DNA of 64,000 nucleotides from positions 1 through 64,000 of the IMG/VR virus record IMGVR_UViG_2602041664_000001. One strand, written 5' to 3'. Under the pieces are notes generated by a model. It had not been told where the DNA came from and searched no databases. It worked only from the letters and a program-made list of their open reading frames with translations. Numbering within the stretch: the stretch's first letter is position 1; the number at the start of each line of letters is the position of its first letter. The position numbers and the translations under genes were made by a program. Shown piece by piece: positions 19,869-23,808 of this stretch. Source of the stretch: a virus. Lineage: Duplodnaviria; Caudoviricetes.

Positions 19869-19903
19869 TGTCCTAACTAAAATATAACGTTTAATTATCT
19901 TTG
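19869..19903 (+). promoter_or_regulatory. TGTCC-N22-TAnnTTTG promoter
   Basis: TGTCC-22 nt-TATCTTTG upstream of the HU-like gene and MTase locus. Confidence 0.75.
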
Positions 19904-19907
19904 CTAT

Positions 19908-20312
19908 ATGAAAAGAATGGCAATCAAATACAAGGTGCAGCATCGACGCTCACAGGTGTCTGGTAAGCATTATGCTTCTTTAGCTGCTGTCTCTAACGGA
20001 CGTATTTCTTTAAGCGACCTTTGCGAGGATGTAGCCTCTAAGTCGCACATGGAAGCTCACGAGATTCGTGGCGTTATGGAACGTCTGGCAAGTCGTGCGC
20101 AAACACTTCTCTCTCGTGGTTTTCGTGTAGAGTTTGGCCCTGTCACTATCTTTCCAAAATCGTCTGGTACGCTTACCGATACTGAAACGCACGCTGCTAC
20201 CGCTGACGACCTCTCGGTGGTGAAAGCAAAGACTACGCTCGGTGCTACCGTCTCCCGAAAGTTTACACGTGACTTTGCAGAAGGTTGTAACTGGCAGAGG
20301 ATAGACGAGTGA
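19908..20312 (+). CDS. Bacteroidetes HU-like DNA-binding protein
   Basis: ISLSDLCEDVA...IRGVM...LLSRGFRVEFG, typical of the Bacteroides histone-like family. Confidence 0.8.
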   Translation: MKRMAIKYKVQHRRSQVSGKHYASLAAVSNGRISLSDLCEDVASKSHMEAHEIRGVMERLASRAQTLLSRGFRVEFGPVTIFPKSSGTLTDTETHAATADDLSVVKAKTTLGATVSRKFTRDFAEGCNWQRIDE

Positions 20313-20480
20313 TGCAGAAAGAGGTGATAAGTAGAACTATCTTTAATCCAGAAACGGGGGGGGGTAGTAAGAATACTTAAAGCGAACTATTACAAGATGG
20401 GTCATCGGAACTTTCTGTTTCGTTCTGATGGCTTTATCGCATCTTGTGTACTGAGTGAATATAGTTTTGAGAATTTTTGA
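20312..20480 (+). pseudogene. TRD-like mini-gene 1, out of frame at a G9 tract (possible phase-variable OFF state)
   Basis: With G9 it stops at 20380 (22 aa). With G8 it reads MQKEVISRTIFNPETGGVVRILKANYYKMGHRNFLFRSDGFIASCVLSEYSFENF (55 aa). Confidence 0.6.
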
Positions 20481-20625
20481 TAAAAAGACACTATTACCTA
20501 TCTGTGTAACTGTTGATAATTGTGTGGTAACACTTGTCTCCAGATATGGTAATATGGATTGGTCTAATCTTATAGGTACACAGCATTATCCTATGACTGC
20601 TGTAATGGTTGAATATGATTTGTAA
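20467..20625 (+). CDS. TRD-like mini-gene 2 (52 aa)
   Basis: TTG start; MRIFDKKTLLPICVTVDNCVVTLVSRYGNMDWSNLIGTQHYPMTAVMVEYDL; paralog of 22361..22558. Confidence 0.65.
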   Translation: MRIFDKKTLLPICVTVDNCVVTLVSRYGNMDWSNLIGTQHYPMTAVMVEYDL

Positions 20626-21897
20626 CTTTGTTGGTTGGACACGTGACGATAAAGGAAAGGTTCTAAACAGGCACTTTAAGGATATTTGTAATACGATTAC
20701 TTCCAAGGCTGGTAGAAATGGTAATACCTCTCCTTTTGTGTGCATTAGTAATAATAATTCTAATAAAAGTATGATTGCAAAGATTTATCCTGACGGGCAT
20801 CCTGACTTGTTGGGAAAGAAAGATCCAACGCATCCTGTGCGTTATTTCGATATTCGTAAATTGACGCCGACTGAATGCTTTCGTTTGATGGGTGTAAGCG
20901 ATAATGATATTGAGAAGATTTTGCAAAGCGGACTGAGTAAGTCAGCTTGCTATAAATTGGCTGGTAATTCTATCGTTGTTGATTGTCTCTACTATATCTA
21001 TCGTAATATATGGCTGACCGAAGACGAACAACCACGGACGGGTGATGTTATGAGCTTGTTTGACGAACCTACTTTTCGTGCTCCATTACCTAAAACTATC
21101 AATATGGTTACGTTATGTTCAGGTTATGATTCGCAGTGTTTAGCTATGCAACGTCTTATTTCAGATGCTAAACAGCAGGGCTATGATGTGACGTTCGACT
21201 TGAAGGCGTGGAGTGAGTTCGACCCTGAAAGTCGTTCTGCCTTGGAGAAACAACCGGCGGTTGTGGCACACAACTCTCTTTTTCCTCAGTTTGCTGACCG
21301 TAACGTGGGTGATATGACCAAAGCAGATTGGTCGTTTCTGAAGGGTGAAAATATTGATTTGCTTACCTATTCAACTCCTTGCCAGTCTATTCTCAAGCGG
21401 GAAAGCGGACAGGGATAAAACGTGATAGCGGTACACGTTCATCTGTGTTGTGGTACACAGAGAATGCTATTCGTGCCTTGCGTCCTAAGTTTCTCTTACA
21501 AGAGAATGTTCGTGCGTTGGTTAACAAGATTAATGTCGATGATTTCAAGGAATGGCAGAAGGTATGCCAGGATTGTGGCTATACGAATTATTGGACTATT
21601 ATGAATGCAAAAGACTTTGGTGTTCCACAGAATCGTGAACGTGTCTTTATGCTTTCAGTTCGTAATGACTTAAATCTCCCTACTTATCGTTTTCCTAAAC
21701 CTTTCCGTCTCGACAAAGCTATTGTTGATATTCTTGAGGAGGATGTGAATGAATCTTATTTCTTAAAGCCAGAGAGCGTTCTTAAGTTCTTCGAGGCTAA
21801 TGAAAAGCCAGAAGATGCAGGTATTCATTATCTTGTAACCGATCATAAGCTGTCAGATGTGGAGATTGCTAATGTGCGTGGTGCTGAAAAATCGTAG
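20615..21897 (+). CDS. Circularly permuted DNA (cytosine-5) methyltransferase with N-terminal TRD; 1-nt frameshift at about 21391
   Basis: Order: TRD (NTITSKAG), IX (IRKLTPTECFRLMG), X (YKLAGNSIVV), I (TLCSGYDSQ), IV (STPCQS), then in another frame SQAGKR..GTRSS, VI (QENV), VIII (PQNRERVF). Confidence 0.85.
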
Positions 21898-22054
21898 GAC
21901 TGACGAGGGCAAGGCTGTTCGTCGTTTGTATGGCGACAACAGTGGTATGTGTCGCTTTGCAGATAGACAGCTTTTCCCCTCGTCCGCTTGTTGGTCGAAT
22001 ACTGTTACTGGTGTTGATAAGGATAATTTGATGTTGGTGGAATATGATCCGTAG
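21857..22054 (+). CDS. TRD-like mini-gene 3
   Basis: RTDEGKAVRR...SNTVTGVDKDNLMLVEYDP. Confidence 0.65.
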   Translation: MWRLLMCVVLKNRRTDEGKAVRRLYGDNSGMCRFADRQLFPSSACWSNTVTGVDKDNLMLVEYDP

Positions 22055-22202
22055 AGATAATATTTGTGTTGTCGGTCTTTTGCCGTTTATAACTTGGTTT
22101 AGACCTGATCGTGTAGTTCTTTCTGTAGAAGGGGTTAGTACTACCTTACAGACGCAGATGAACTCTAAACTTCAGAAAATATTAGTAGAGTATGACTTGT
22201 AG
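22044..22202 (+). CDS. TRD-like mini-gene 4 (52 aa)
   Basis: MIRRDNICVVGLLPFITWFRPDRVVLSVEGVSTTLQTQMNSKLQKILVEYDL. Confidence 0.65.
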   Translation: MIRRDNICVVGLLPFITWFRPDRVVLSVEGVSTTLQTQMNSKLQKILVEYDL

Positions 22203-22374
22203 AGAAAAAACTATTCGTGCAAAGTGGTTGCCAAATGGAAATATCCGTTTCTTTAGGGATGACGATAAGAAGAGTGGGGTAGGTGAGCTTTGTTGTACCG
22301 CTTGTTGTAATCCTTCTGCGACAGTTATCCGTGGTGTTGTGGGTTGTGTTATTGTTGATTATGAATTTGATTAG
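22192..22374 (+). CDS. TRD-like mini-gene 5 (60 aa)
   Basis: IRFFRDDDKKSG...PSATVIRG...VIVDYEFD; starts within the previous EYD codons. Confidence 0.6.
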   Translation: MTCREKTIRAKWLPNGNIRFFRDDDKKSGVGELCCTACCNPSATVIRGVVGCVIVDYEFD

Positions 22375-22558
22375 TCTTTGCTCGACGGCTGTTTCCGTTC
22401 CTAAATTTCTTTTTTGGGGTCAAATGGCTGCTGTGAATGTTTGTACGGGTAATGTCGCTTGTACGCTAAATACTCGGTATGAGTATATGGGTAAAAGTGA
22501 TTTCCTTTCTTTAGTGCATTTCCCTAAGACTGTGGTTTTGTGTGAATATGATATGTAA
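22361..22558 (+). CDS. TRD-like mini-gene 6 (65 aa)
   Basis: VNVCTGNVACTLNTRYEYMGKSDFLSLVHFPKTVVLCEYDM. Confidence 0.65.
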   Translation: MNLISLCSTAVSVPKFLFWGQMAAVNVCTGNVACTLNTRYEYMGKSDFLSLVHFPKTVVLCEYDM

Positions 22559-22775
22559 CTGTCCTGTTTTGTACGTTCGTGACGTGCGTCCATCCGATTC
22601 CTCTTCGCCTGTACGTATTAGTGCGAGTCGTGGACGTAACCCGTCATCTCCTAAAAAAAGGGCAAGGAGTGGAGAAACGTTCTTGCAGTTTGTTGAAATA
22701 GGTAGTGGCGTGGTTACGAATACGATTACTTCTGTTTCTAAAGATAACTGGTTATGGATAGAAAAAGACTTATAG
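22548..22775 (+). CDS. TRD-like mini-gene 7 (75 aa)
   Basis: ASRGRNPSSP...QFVEIGSGVVTNTITSVSKDNWLWIEKDL. Confidence 0.7.
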   Translation: MICNCPVLYVRDVRPSDSSSPVRISASRGRNPSSPKKRARSGETFLQFVEIGSGVVTNTITSVSKDNWLWIEKDL

Positions 22776-22894
22776 GTACATCCGTTCACCCTTTATCCCA
22801 TAAAATAGAGTGGAGTGGGTGGCTCTCACATTCGCCCGCATTACGCTCGACGGATTACAAATGTCCGCATTGCTTGGTATTTGAATATGAATAA
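22754..22894 (+). CDS. TRD-like mini-gene 8 (46 aa)
   Basis: MDRKRLIGTSVHPLSHKIEWSGWLSHSPALRSTDYKCPHCLVFEYE. Confidence 0.6.
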   Translation: MDRKRLIGTSVHPLSHKIEWSGWLSHSPALRSTDYKCPHCLVFEYE

Positions 22895-23045
22895 AGGAAA
22901 TGTGTCTTTGATAGTCTTGGGGAGATATTCGCCTTCTCAAAATGGTGTAATCGTATCTCCCCTTGGTCTGTCTCCTTGCATTGTTGGTGGAGATACCGGG
23001 CATGATACGGACGTACCGAAGATTTTGTGTGAGCGTGATCTGTAG
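22887..23045 (+). CDS. TRD-like mini-gene 9 (52 aa)
   Basis: MNKGNVSLIVLGRYSPSQNGVIVSPLGLSPCIVGGDTGHDTDVPKILCERDL. Confidence 0.65.
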   Translation: MNKGNVSLIVLGRYSPSQNGVIVSPLGLSPCIVGGDTGHDTDVPKILCERDL

Positions 23046-23048
23046 GTT

Positions 23049-23083
23049 TGTCCCACATCGTTGTTTTTGTTTTCCTATCTTTG
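23049..23083 (+). promoter_or_regulatory. TGTCC-N22-TAnnTTTG promoter
   Basis: TGTCC-22 nt-TATCTTTG. Confidence 0.75.
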
Positions 23084-23131
23084 TATCGTCTTCTATTGGA
23101 ATTGTCCTTTGGAGAATGAAAAAGTATTGGT

Positions 23132-23701
23132 ATGGTTTCACGATTTGATAATATACTTGAACATTGGGCACAAATTTATCGTCCGCTTTCGCATAACCCA
23201 GAAAAGGGCAGCAAGGAGAAAGCTTTCTATCGCATTGATACTATCAATACGCAGAATGAATTTGTGCGCAATGTTAACACCGCTGCTTCACCAGCTTTGG
23301 CTTACTCGTCTTTGATAGATGCTGAATTGCACGACTCTTTGAAGACGGTTCATTATCGACATACGTTATATTTCCTTGCTAAACAGCCTCAGGTATCGCT
23401 GGCTAAGTCGGCAAAGCAGGACGATGATAATGCTGCTGCTCTGAAGGTTGAAATGGACGAGTGGGTGAATGACTTGCTTATATGGTTGTTCTCTGTTCGT
23501 AGGAAAGGGAAATGTCCCATAACTGGCAAGGTGTTTAGTGATGTTGACTTACAGGCTTTGCGAGGATTGGATTTAGATAATGCTTCGTGGGCAACTATTC
23601 CTATGATGTATAATGGTTGGTGGGTGTTGGGCTTAGAACTTAACCAGGTGTCTCCTCGTAAACAGTGCATTGAAAATGAACGCTATAAGAAACTTCTTTA
23701 G
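23132..23701 (+). CDS. Hypothetical protein, possibly tail terminator-like
   Basis: 189 aa; own TGTCC-type promoter; ends in a GWWVLGLEL strand. Confidence 0.5.
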   Translation: MVSRFDNILEHWAQIYRPLSHNPEKGSKEKAFYRIDTINTQNEFVRNVNTAASPALAYSSLIDAELHDSLKTVHYRHTLYFLAKQPQVSLAKSAKQDDDNAAALKVEMDEWVNDLLIWLFSVRRKGKCPITGKVFSDVDLQALRGLDLDNASWATIPMMYNGWWVLGLELNQVSPRKQCIENERYKKLL

Positions 23702-23739
23702 AGTGTATTAAACTCGCGCCATAAGTATTTAATTGAAAG

Positions 23740-23772
23740 AATGCCTATCACCTGTGAAGGTGGTAGGCATTC
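23740..23772. terminator. Hairpin terminator between convergent genes
   Basis: AATGCCTATCACC-TGTGAA-GGTGGTAGGCATT. Confidence 0.7.
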
Positions 23773-23808
23773 GCTATTAATAGTGGTTGAGTTAGTTTGT
23801 GTTCCTTT

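What the first reader, a model, noticed from the sequence alone, without database searches (positions are those of the whole stretch)
20312..23045. Circularly permuted C5-MTase with a library of free-standing TRD mini-genes: candidate modular multispecific anti-restriction system
Seen: the core has motifs in the order TRD-IX-X-I-IV-VI-VIII. It is flanked by 2 upstream and 7 downstream overlapping ORFs of 46-75 aa, several below the ORF-track cutoff. Each has a T/A/C-L/I/V core (VTL, NTV, TTL, ATV, CTL, NTI, PAL, PCI, RIL), and most end in hydrophobic-E-Y-D/E. They fall into paralogous pairs: 20467 with 22361 (TL..RY..M...H(Y/F)P.T.V), 21857 with 22548 (NT(V/I)T...KDN), and 22044 with 22887 (V(V/L)G...S..G.S...KIL). 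Known: Bacillus phage multispecific MTases (M.SPR, M.phi3TI) hold several TRDs between motifs VIII and IX of one polypeptide, and permuted (M.Alw26I-type) and split (M.AquI) C5-MTases exist. Inference: this locus is such an enzyme opened inside its TRD array, with each TRD a separate peptide that may dock on one catalytic core in trans. That would give up to about 10 exchangeable specificities. I do not know of a described system like this.
Basis: partly seen in the sequence, partly recalled or inferred. Interest (0 to 1): 0.92.

Follow-up and report, generated by a model that had tools for sequence, protein, structure and literature searches.

The report
Phage methylase with detachable, switchable specificity mini-genes
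A Prevotella-type phage carries a rearranged cytosine DNA methylase surrounded by about ten tiny genes that each encode only a DNA-recognition module; relatives show the modules are kept as separate proteins and are individually switched on and off by runs of G, an arrangement I could not find described.

Summary
Window 20312-23045 holds a circularly permuted C5-MTase core flanked by 2 upstream and 7 downstream mini-ORFs. Each ends in hydrophobic-E-Y-D/E-x-stop, with the next ORF's ATG embedded in that junction.

The window's core is broken by a 1-nt deletion at motif IV; five 93-96% relatives have it intact.

Evidence that the mini-ORFs are genes:
- Four of the five downstream mini-ORFs shared by all relatives are under purifying selection in their own frames (omega 0.09-0.23; core 0.13).
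- They match TRD units of ordinary single-chain multi-TRD MTases.
- The architecture recurs in 22 contigs, two of them Prevotella or Prevotellaceae assemblies.

New findings:
- In 11 of 22 contigs the core starts just before motif IX and has no TRD at all. One locus is simply one TRD gene plus a TRD-less core.
- In distant relatives nearly every mini-gene carries a G6-G10 tract. G8 is mostly in frame (20 ON, 9 OFF) and G7 mostly out (2 ON, 29 OFF). Tract lengths differ between near-identical genomes.
- The window keeps one tract, G9 in c0, out of frame.

Best reading (about 0.6): separately translated, trans-acting specificity subunits for one catalytic core, phase-variable in relatives.

The parts
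20312..20380 (+). c0 leader ORF. Its ATG overlaps the stop of the upstream HU-HIG gene, and it runs into the G tract and stops out of frame.
20356..20364 (+). G9 homopolymer tract, the only one left in the window's locus. The same site is G8 in L001 and run X2 (in frame) and G7 in L005 (out of frame).
20365..20480 (+). c0 TRD body (family H), out of frame with its leader. It ends E-Y-S, and a T5 run (20474-20478) then gives a stop. L001 and runs X2, X3 and X4 have one T fewer, and in L001 c0 and c1 form one 110-aa ORF.
20455..20625 (+). c1 mini-ORF (family A TRD). It has a GTG start in the window and ends V-E-Y-D-L-stop.
20615..20770 (+). Family E TRD fused in frame to the core. It starts at the junction ATG. 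In relatives such as L009 this TRD is a separate mini-ORF.
20771..21418 (+). Core, first part: the invariant N-terminal segment (M-I-A-K-I-Y-P...), motifs IX, X and I, and motif IV (P-C-Q). It then runs out of frame to a stop because one T is missing at about 21389 compared with relatives.
21391..21897 (+). Core, second part (rest of motif IV, then VI and VIII, and the start of the variable region), in the -1 frame.
21857..22054 (+). c3 mini-ORF (family C). Absent in L002-L006. L001 has a 1-nt frameshift in it.
22044..22202 (+). c4 mini-ORF (family L). Absent in L002-L006.
22192..22374 (+). c5 mini-ORF (family G). Omega 0.14.
22361..22558 (+). c6 mini-ORF, a second family A copy. Omega 0.62 with no codon-position bias, so selection is relaxed.
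22548..22775 (+). c7 mini-ORF (family C, the N-T-I-T-S type). Omega 0.23. Free-standing relatives exist down to 36-64% identity.
22754..22894 (+). c8 mini-ORF (family D). Omega 0.09.
22887..23045 (+). c9 mini-ORF (family B). Omega 0.13. Relatives have a G tract at the Gly run, but here the run is interrupted.

Best explanation
The locus encodes a phage self-protection C5-cytosine DNA methyltransferase built from separate parts. One part is a circularly permuted catalytic core (IX-X-I-IV-VI-VIII). The others are small proteins of 46-75 aa that each consist of one target-recognition domain (TRD).

Each mini-gene is translated on its own from an ATG embedded in the preceding gene's E-Y-D tail. 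Each product then pairs non-covalently with the core. The shared V/I-L-I-E-Y-D/E tail probably sits next to the core's invariant N-terminal segment. The core would thus gain one specificity per TRD present.

In most relatives every mini-gene, and often the core, carries a G or C homopolymer tract whose length sets the reading frame. Each specificity is therefore switched on or off by slippage.

The window's lineage is a derived, largely locked form. One TRD is fused to the core, seven downstream mini-genes have no tract, and only c0 keeps a tract (G9, out of frame). In this genome the core itself is inactivated by a 1-nt deletion at motif IV.

Shown: the anatomy, TRD homology, purifying selection, recurrence of the architecture, TRD-less cores, and the link between tract length and frame. 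Inferred: separate translation, trans docking, multispecific methylation and the anti-restriction role.
For: (1) The core is a C5-MTase. Pfam PF00145 matches it. A model of the intact L001 ortholog has pLDDT 80.5, and Foldseek places it on M.HhaI (E 2.9e-14), M.MpeI and M.HaeIII.

(2) The mini-ORFs are TRDs. Profile A1 gives 390 hits at E<=1e-3. Nine of 10 long hits checked carry PF00145. P0052, P0061 and P0066 are single chains with TRD units in series that end hydrophobic-E-P. Six of 9 window cassettes hit internal segments of such proteins.

(3) They are coding. Omega is 0.14, 0.23, 0.09 and 0.13 in the annotated frames and above 1 in the other two frames; the core has 0.13.

(4) The junction ATG is a real start. 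In L002-L004, which lack the upstream cassettes, the core ORF has no earlier ATG.

(5) Many cores have no TRD. This holds in 11 of 22 contigs. Six of 11 fetched database homologs start at M-I-A-K-I. L018 consists of one TRD ORF plus a TRD-less core, with about 160 nt between them.

(6) Position does not matter. TRD families B and E occur upstream in some loci and downstream in others.

(7) Fusions are tolerated where a split enzyme would predict them. These are TRD-to-core (window lineage, P0243, P0252, P0272) and TRD-to-TRD (the c0+c1 ORF of L001).

(8) The tracts behave as switches. Up to 13 G/C runs of 7 or more lie inside a locus, against 0-2 outside. Frame states by tract length: G7 2 ON/29 OFF, G8 20/9, G9 3/6, G10 0/3. 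In 45 of 54 single-tract OFF units the leader is open from a junction ATG to the tract. G7 units need +1 in 22 cases and -1 in 1 (3 ambiguous). G9 units need -1 in 5 of 6. Seven of 14 indels between L008 and L011 (96.5% identical) are tract-length changes. The c0 tract is G9, G8 or G7 in three close genomes.

(9) Natural and artificial C5-MTases split in the variable region complement efficiently (passages of PMC5944983 and PMC3404938).
Against:
- The AF2 model gives the cis TRD (residues 1-51) pLDDT below 50, so even its placement is unknown.
- The window's own core is frameshifted at depth about 1079 in its probable source run. In this genome the system may be dead or decaying.
- c6 shows relaxed selection (omega 0.62). 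L001 has a frameshift in c3.
- Five contigs and the window lineage have a TRD in frame with the core, so cis use exists too.
- Nine of 29 G8 units are out of frame, and 12 tract-less units were scored OFF by my heuristic.
- The omega counts sum over non-independent pairs.
- Only contigs were available, so tract-length variation within one population was not seen.
- Free 50-aa TRDs may not fold or bind on their own.
Confidence: 0.6

Rival explanations
1. Cis assembly by recoding. Ribosomal frameshifting at the stop-containing junctions, or ribosomal or transcriptional slippage on the G tracts, joins cassettes to each other and to the core. The active species would then be a fused multi-TRD polypeptide like M.SPRI.
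For: - Six of 7 cassette-to-cassette junctions in the window move to the +1 frame directly at a stop codon.
- The core-to-c3 junction lies next to an A5 run.
- A G7 tract read with a -1 slip gives the same frame as G8.
- In-frame TRD-core and TRD-TRD fusions exist naturally.
- Single-chain multi-TRD homologs exist.
Against: - The codon before the stop varies (TTG, CCG, GAT, ATG, TTA, GAA, CTG), with no re-pairing site.
- One junction shifts -1/+2 (22754).
- L018 has about 160 nt between its TRD ORF and the core.
- Any OFF cassette would end a serial fusion, yet most cassettes in distant loci are OFF.
- 125 of 153 cassette ends carry an out-of-frame ATG in the last 18 nt, which fits re-initiation.
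- Tract lengths differ at the DNA level between close genomes.
Confidence: 0.12
2. A reservoir of silent cassettes. The mini-ORFs are donors that recombination, using the conserved junctions, moves into the position next to the core. They would work like pilS or vls cassettes and are not themselves functional proteins.
For: - L005 lost c1 by a crossover inside the junction, leaving a hybrid tail.
- L002-L006 lost 21880-22210 with a hybrid N-terminus.
- The window lineage has a family E cassette fused to the core.
- Cassette order differs between loci.
Against: - Purifying selection on the cassettes is as strong as on the core.
- Each cassette has its own ATG.
- Per-cassette frame switches would have no purpose in untranslated donors.
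- Eleven of 22 cores have no TRD slot to convert into.
- All cassettes are direct repeats, so exchange would mostly delete them.
- The core's TRD is the same in all 6 genomes of the window lineage.
Confidence: 0.08
3. The mini-proteins are made but do something other than supply specificity. For example, they could compete for the core to regulate it, or bind DNA or host restriction enzymes as decoys.
For: They are conserved, separately startable ORFs. No binding or activity data exist. The window lineage already has a cis TRD on the core.
Against: They are homologous over their whole length to recognition units of working multi-TRD MTases. TRD-less cores would have no recognition module at all. 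About 15 recurrent TRD families fit a library of specificities better than a single regulatory role.
Confidence: 0.1
4. Decay. The region is the wreck of a once-continuous multispecific MTase gene, and the small ORFs are leftovers.
For: Compared with relatives, the window has three homopolymer-type frameshifts (G run, T run, core). L001 has one in c3. c6 evolves almost neutrally. L009 and others have cassettes split by frameshifts.
Against: - Omega is 0.09-0.23 in 4 of 5 shared cassettes.
- The same stop-plus-embedded-ATG junction is kept across cores only 52-69% identical.
- The frameshifts in distant loci sit at G tracts, with a regular rule linking length to frame.
- The core is intact in 5 of 5 close IMG/VR relatives that span it and in runs X2 and X3.
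Confidence: 0.05

Closest known systems
Multispecific Bacillus phage C5-MTases (M.SPRI, M.Phi3TI and relatives). These names are recalled; the single-chain multi-TRD homologs P0052, P0061 and P0066 were seen.
   Same: One catalytic framework serves several independent TRD units of about 40-70 aa. The units are homologous to the cassettes here and end in a hydrophobic-E motif. The genes are phage-borne and lack a partner nuclease, so self-protection is the presumed role.
   Different: In those enzymes all TRDs lie in one polypeptide between motifs VIII and IX. Here every TRD is its own ORF with its own stop and start. The core is circularly permuted and often has no TRD. Units are switched individually by homopolymer tracts.
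Natural circularly permuted C5-MTases (M.BssHII, M.Alw26I, M2.Eco31I, M.Esp3I, M2.BsaI; 'type H'). Passages of PMC5944983.
   Same: Motifs IX and X precede I-VIII. In the window lineage the N-terminus lies in the variable region ahead of a TRD.
   Different: In the TRD-less relatives the N-terminus lies after the TRD and just before motif IX. The TRD is therefore excluded from the chain. Sequence relatedness to those named enzymes was not tested.
Two-subunit C5-MTases M.AquI and M.EcoHK31I. Passages of PMC3404938.
   Same: The active enzyme is assembled from separate polypeptides, and the chain break lies in or near the variable region.
   Different: The small subunit of M.AquI carries the distal variable region plus motifs IX-X. 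That of M.EcoHK31I carries only motif IX. Neither has a TRD-only subunit or a library of alternative subunits.
Type I restriction-modification HsdS specificity subunits and their phase-variable loci (recalled; programmed inversions are listed in PMC9881135, seen in a search listing only).
   Same: The logic is the same: catalysis and sequence recognition are on different polypeptides, and a population varies its recognition modules.
   Different: The enzyme class differs (N6-adenine, unrelated TRD fold). Variation there works by inversion between hsdS copies. Here it works by homopolymer slippage in each of many small genes.
Simple-sequence-repeat phase variation of MTase genes (phasevarions, Campylobacter poly-G genes; PMC4889913 seen as listing and abstract) and poly-G tracts in Campylobacter phage receptor-binding genes (recalled).
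   Same: G tracts inside coding sequence set the frame, and their length varies between close relatives.
   Different: In those cases one tract switches a whole enzyme. Here up to about 13 tracts in one 3-4 kb locus each switch a single recognition module, and a further tract switches the core.

Membership tests
C5-cytosine DNA methyltransferase (Pfam PF00145) | Significant match to the family profile, with motifs IV (P-C-Q), VI (E-N-V), VIII (Q-x-R-x-R), IX and X | tested here: met
   PF00145 matches at E 1e-11 and 4.5e-31 on the two halves. The motifs are visible in alignment A2. The window copy is interrupted just after P-C-Q by a 1-nt deletion.
C5-cytosine DNA methyltransferase (Pfam PF00145) | C5-MTase fold | tested here: met
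   AF2 model of the intact L001 ortholog has pLDDT 80.5. Foldseek top hits are M.HhaI 2uz4 (E 2.9e-14), M.MpeI 4dkj and M.HaeIII 1dct.
C5-cytosine DNA methyltransferase (Pfam PF00145) | Transfers a methyl group to C5 of cytosine | not testable with these tools
   No biochemical data are available.
Circularly permuted C5-MTases (M.BssHII type) | Motifs IX-X lie N-terminal to motifs I-VIII in one chain | tested here: met
   Profile positions 269-322 match residues 67-134 of the first ORF. Positions 74-204 follow in the second ORF. The order is the same in 8 aligned cores.
Circularly permuted C5-MTases (M.BssHII type) | [quoted passage not shown] | tested here: inconclusive
   Met in the window lineage (6 contigs). 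Not met in 11 of 22 contigs, where the chain starts after the TRD.
Multispecific phage C5-MTases (M.SPRI type) | Several TRDs in tandem within one polypeptide between motifs VIII and IX | tested here: not met
   Every unit ends in a stop and the next is in another frame. The core is permuted.
Multispecific phage C5-MTases (M.SPRI type) | TRD units homologous to those of multi-TRD enzymes | tested here: met
   Six of 9 window cassettes hit such proteins.
Multispecific phage C5-MTases (M.SPRI type) | Each TRD confers an independent target sequence | not testable with these tools
   Needs methylome mapping.
Heteromeric (split) C5-MTases (M.AquI type) | Catalytic and recognition parts lie on separate polypeptides encoded by adjacent genes | tested here: met
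   TRD-less core plus TRD-only ORFs in 11 of 22 contigs. L018 is the minimal pair.
Heteromeric (split) C5-MTases (M.AquI type) | The subunits associate and both are needed for activity | not testable with these tools
Repeat-mediated phase-variable genes (contingency loci) | A homopolymer tract inside the coding sequence whose length decides the frame | tested here: met
   In the window this applies only to c0 (G9, out of frame).
Repeat-mediated phase-variable genes (contingency loci) | Tract length varies between very close genomes more than other sequence does | tested here: met
   Seven of 14 indels between L008 and L011, and 2 of 7 between L009 and L010, are tract changes. The c0 tract is G7, G8 or G9.
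Repeat-mediated phase-variable genes (contingency loci) | Reversible switching within one population | not testable with these tools
   All runs found are kept as contigs only.

The most novel reading that the evidence does not exclude
A phage-borne combinatorial methylation switchboard. One TRD-less, circularly permuted C5-MTase core is served in trans by a library of up to about 15 TRD-only subunits. Each subunit is toggled by its own poly-G tract, so a phage population samples up to 2^n methylation patterns. That would hedge between hosts whose restriction enzymes are blocked by a given methylation and hosts whose methyl-dependent nucleases are triggered by it. It would be the C5-MTase counterpart of the Type I HsdM/HsdS division of labour.
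Probability: 0.45. Interest if true: 0.93.

Novelty: new variant of a known kind. Interest (0 to 1): 0.86.

Why it matters
C5-MTases are textbook single-chain enzymes whose specificity sits in a built-in TRD. A natural system in which the TRD is a free, exchangeable subunit would change that picture.

It would explain how gut phages of Prevotella-like hosts might cope with many restriction systems using one small locus. It would also be an example of dense, per-module phase variation in a virus.

Practically, about 15 compact TRD families that may plug into one core would be a toolkit for programmable cytosine methylation. The family is large: 6661 core homologs at E<=1e-5. It is annotated only as generic cytosine methyltransferase, and the mini-genes match no Pfam or PHROGs family.

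Tried and rejected
- Pfam (E<=1) and PHROGs (E<=0.01) found no family for the mini-ORFs. Their TRD nature had to be shown with a custom profile.
- A blastn search of 19900-23800 against the phage collection gave one 5% match.
- Locus scans with P0039 and P0117 found nothing. The context of the small TRD-like proteins from other lineages (P0064, P0092, P0094, P0100, P0102, P0110, P0117) stays unknown.
- The promoter and terminator scan found no more sites than in shuffled sequence.
- In the AF2 model of the natural TRD-core fusion (L001), the TRD had pLDDT below 50. It says nothing about where a TRD sits.
- All sequencing runs found were contigs, so heterogeneity within a population could not be read.
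- I considered a uniform +1 programmed frameshift. I rejected it as the main mechanism because the codons before the stops vary and one junction shifts the other way.
- I considered a genetic-code change. I rejected it because long ORFs elsewhere in the window are intact under table 11.
- The paralogous pair 22044/22887 was not supported.
- Six literature searches found no description of free-standing TRD genes or per-TRD tracts. Subscription journals and REBASE notes were not searchable, and supplements are closed.
- Correction: my notebook says 8 of 14 indels between L008 and L011 are tract changes. Recounting one search gives 7 of 14.

Full report
SETTING. The window is the first 64 kb of an 82,871-bp virus record with inverted terminal repeats, rated complete. 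Genes lie almost all on the + strand. Long ORFs of up to 1783 aa are intact under table 11, so neither a code change nor general sequence damage explains the small ORFs.

ANATOMY IN THE WINDOW.
- An HU-HIG gene (19908-20312, PF18291) ends where unit c0 starts (ATG 20312).
- c0 has an 18-codon leader, a G9 run (20356-20364), and a TRD body in another frame that ends E-Y-S. A T5 run then creates a stop.
- c1 (20455-20625) follows.
- The core starts at an ATG inside c1's tail (20615). It carries a TRD (to about 20770), a segment beginning M-I-A-K-I-Y-P, and then motifs IX, X, I and IV.
- After P-C-Q-S-I the frame breaks. The rest of the core (motifs VI and VIII and the start of the variable region) continues in the -1 frame to 21897. 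Pfam PF00145 covers both halves in the permuted order.
- Seven mini-ORFs follow, up to 23045.
- Every unit ends hydrophobic-E-Y/K/R-D/E, then 0-2 residues, then a stop. In six junctions the next ATG lies within gaATATGAn, which produces the regular +1 frame step. The c7/c8 junction uses an ATG 22 nt upstream, a -1 step.

CLOSE RELATIVES. Six IMG/VR loci are 93-96% identical in DNA.
- All five that span the core have it intact, at 427-438 aa, with one extra T where the window is broken. Two other sequencing runs, X2 and X3, agree. The probable source run of the window reproduces the window exactly at depth about 1079.
- The mini-ORFs keep their frames and stops in all relatives.
- Substitution counts over the 7 sequences give omega 0.14 (c5), 0.23 (c7), 0.09 (c8) and 0.13 (c9) in the annotated frames, and above 1 in the other two frames. 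The core gives 0.13. c6, a second copy of family A, gives 0.62 with no codon-position bias. The pairs summed are not independent, but the third-position excess is large.
- Differences between genomes are cassette-wise. L005 lacks c1, with a hybrid tail at the junction. L002-L006 lack 21880-22210 (c3 and c4). L002-L004 have an unrelated ORF in place of c0 and c1. L001 has c0 and c1 in one 110-aa ORF and a frameshift in c3.
- In L002-L004 the core ORF contains no ATG before the junction ATG, so that ATG is a genuine start.

ARE THE MINI-ORFS TRDs? Pfam and PHROGs do not recognise them.
- A search restricted to small proteins found 42 relatives of c7. Thirty-seven are near-identical copies of about 77 aa from many contigs. 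Five are 36-64% identical and still free-standing, with the same tail.
- A profile of these (A1), run against 1.84 billion representatives, gave 390 hits at E<=1e-3. The top ten are small proteins, followed by 229-657-aa proteins matched in an internal stretch. Nine of the 10 long hits checked carry PF00145.
- P0052, P0061 and P0066 are ordinary-order MTases with several recognition units in series, each ending hydrophobic-E-P. They contain homologs of at least four cassette families.
- Six of 9 window cassettes give BLASTP hits to internal segments of the 54 long proteins held. c1, c4 and c6 do not.
- So the cassettes correspond one-to-one to TRD units of single-chain multispecific enzymes. 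Each is cut exactly at the unit boundary, just before the point where motif IX would follow.

DISTANT RELATIVES CHANGE THE PICTURE. Using a distant free-standing homolog and then a core alignment as queries, I obtained loci from 22 distinct contigs, the window included. Their cores are 52-69% identical to the window lineage. All 22 have at least one tail-motif mini-ORF beside the core.
- The number ranges from one (L018) and three upstream only (L022) to about 15 (L020/L013, L021/L014).
- Tail-motif ORFs are essentially confined to the locus.
- The pooled tail consensus over 153 ends is V/I/L, L, I, E (140 of 153), Y (120), then D or E. One residue before the stop is the commonest spacing (91). 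An out-of-frame ATG lies in the last 18 nt in 125 of 153 ends.
- In 11 of 22 contigs the core ORF begins at or within 18 codons of M-I-A-K-I-Y-P and therefore has no TRD.
- In 5 contigs a TRD of another family is in frame upstream, behind a G tract. In the 6 contigs of the window lineage a family E TRD is fused. In L009, L011 and others that same family E TRD is a separate mini-ORF with the usual tail.
- The database holds a large family of such cores: 6661 hits at E<=1e-5. Most of the best 120 cover about 86% of the query, that is, they lack the TRD. Six of 11 that I fetched start directly at M-I-A-K-I.
- The N-terminal 32 residues and the C-terminal T-D-H-K-L-S segment are the most invariant parts of the core. 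Both chain ends border the gap where a TRD would sit.
- Clustering 159 cassette ends gives about 15 recurrent families. Families B and E occur on either side of the core in different genomes.

HOMOPOLYMER SWITCHES. In the distant loci almost every cassette holds a G6-G10 run on the coding strand, usually encoding a Gly-Gly stretch. Several cores hold a C7-C10 run.
- Runs of 7 or more number up to 13 inside a locus, against 0-2 in the remaining 6-7 kb.
- I scored a unit ON when a junction ATG is in frame with the E-Y-D end. The 120 units of 17 loci gave: G7 2 ON/29 OFF, G8 20/9, G9 3/6, G10 0/3, G6 0/3, no tract 33/12.
- Of the 54 OFF units with exactly one tract, 45 have a leader open from a junction ATG up to the tract. 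The length change that would restore the frame is +1 for 22 G7 units (-1 for one, 3 ambiguous), -1 for 5 of 6 G9 units, and -2/+1 for 3 of 3 G10 units. The in-frame length is therefore typically 8.
- Between L008 and L011 (96.5% identical over 6.6 kb), 7 of 14 indel events are length changes in these tracts. Between L009 and L010 the figure is 2 of 7.
- In the window lineage the tracts are replaced by interrupted codons, except in c0. There the run is G9 in the window (out of frame), G8 in L001 and run X2 (in frame), and G7 in L005 (out of frame).
- This is the signature of contingency loci. It only makes sense if each cassette is translated on its own.

MECHANISM. I take the system to be a split, permuted C5-MTase in which the recognition domain has become a family of free subunits.
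- Shown: the gene structure, homology, selection, TRD-less cores, position independence, and the rule linking tract length to frame.
- Inferred: the small proteins fold onto the core at the canonical TRD position, with their common tail next to the core's invariant N-terminus and their N-terminus near the core's C-terminal tail. Each then directs methylation of its own motif, and the phage uses this against host restriction.
- Two observations make the inference plausible. Natural fusions occur at just these ends (TRD-core and TRD-TRD). [quoted passage not shown] M.AquI and M.EcoHK31I are natural two-subunit enzymes (PMC3404938 passages).
- A possible reason for per-TRD switching is a trade-off between methylation-sensitive and methylation-dependent host nucleases, or competition of many TRDs for one core. 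This is speculation.

THE WINDOW'S OWN COPY. It is probably inactive at present, because the core is frameshifted at motif IV and c0 is out of frame. The downstream cassettes are still intact, so the break is recent or a minority state.

RIVALS. I considered four alternative readings.
- Recoding into fused chains fits the direction of most frame steps. It does not fit the variable codons before the stops, the -1 junction, the 160-nt gap in L018, or the many OFF cassettes.
- A silent-cassette reservoir fits the junction crossovers seen between genomes. It does not fit the selection, the start codons, the switches or the TRD-less cores.
- Simple decay fits a few broken units only.
- A non-specificity role for the peptides cannot be excluded without experiments.

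COMPARISON AND NOVELTY. The core is a member of PF00145 and has a permuted motif order like M.BssHII-type enzymes. It fails the defining single-chain feature of multispecific phage MTases. It resembles M.AquI in being split, but its subunit content differs. Six full-text searches found no description of TRD-only genes, of TRD-less permuted cores working with them, or of per-TRD homopolymer switches.

Noticed in passing
P0213, P0218, P0221, P0224, P0226, P0230, P0234, P0239, P0259: Several homologs of the permuted core are 530-743 aa long and carry intein and homing-endonuclease domains (PF14890, PF14528, PF13403). Some copies of this MTase are therefore invaded by inteins.
   Followed up: no
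L009:3544-4995, L011:3290-4771, L014:2852-4354 (alignment A2, columns about 55-165): The cores of the distant clade have an insertion of about 100-130 aa between motifs IX and X. It is partly very acidic and is absent from the window lineage and from L012. Its function is unknown.
   Followed up: no
L012:3360-3724: In L012 the family E TRD ORF is cut short after the Gly run. About 360 nt holding an 88-aa ORF of unknown nature lie between it and the TRD-less core.
   Followed up: no
L008:3383, L009:3638, L010:193, L011:3384, L013:3338, L022:4791: A C7-C10 tract lies inside the core gene, at the Pro codons in or just after motif IX. The core is out of frame in L008 (C9), L013 (C10) and L022 (C7), and in frame in L009, L010 and L011 (C8). 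The catalytic subunit itself therefore looks phase-variable.
   Followed up: partly
L008-L014 tracts, for example L008:2659, 2844, 2953: Many G tracts share the context purine-G(n)-CAA, encoding R/x-G-G-Q. This is more regular than slippage alone requires. It may reflect common descent of the tract segment or a further sequence requirement.
   Followed up: no
window 20344-20355 (run X3): In run X3 two contigs end on either side of the c0 G tract. This would fit tract-length heterogeneity in that sample, but it could also be an ordinary assembly break.
   Followed up: no
L002:2630-2880 and the same place in L003 and L004: Three close relatives carry an unrelated ORF of about 60-83 aa in place of cassettes c0 and c1. 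It has a helical-looking, charged C-terminus and no TRD tail.
   Followed up: no
P0064, P0092, P0094, P0100, P0102, P0110, P0117: These are small (57-70 aa) proteins from other lineages that consist of one c7-type TRD, start with M and end soon after the hydrophobic-E position. Free-standing TRD genes may exist beyond this phage group. They could also be fragments.
   Followed up: partly
window 19908-20312: An HU-HIG (PF18291) DNA-binding protein gene lies directly upstream. Its stop overlaps the ATG of c0 (TGATG), and it is under strong purifying selection (omega 0.04).
   Followed up: partly
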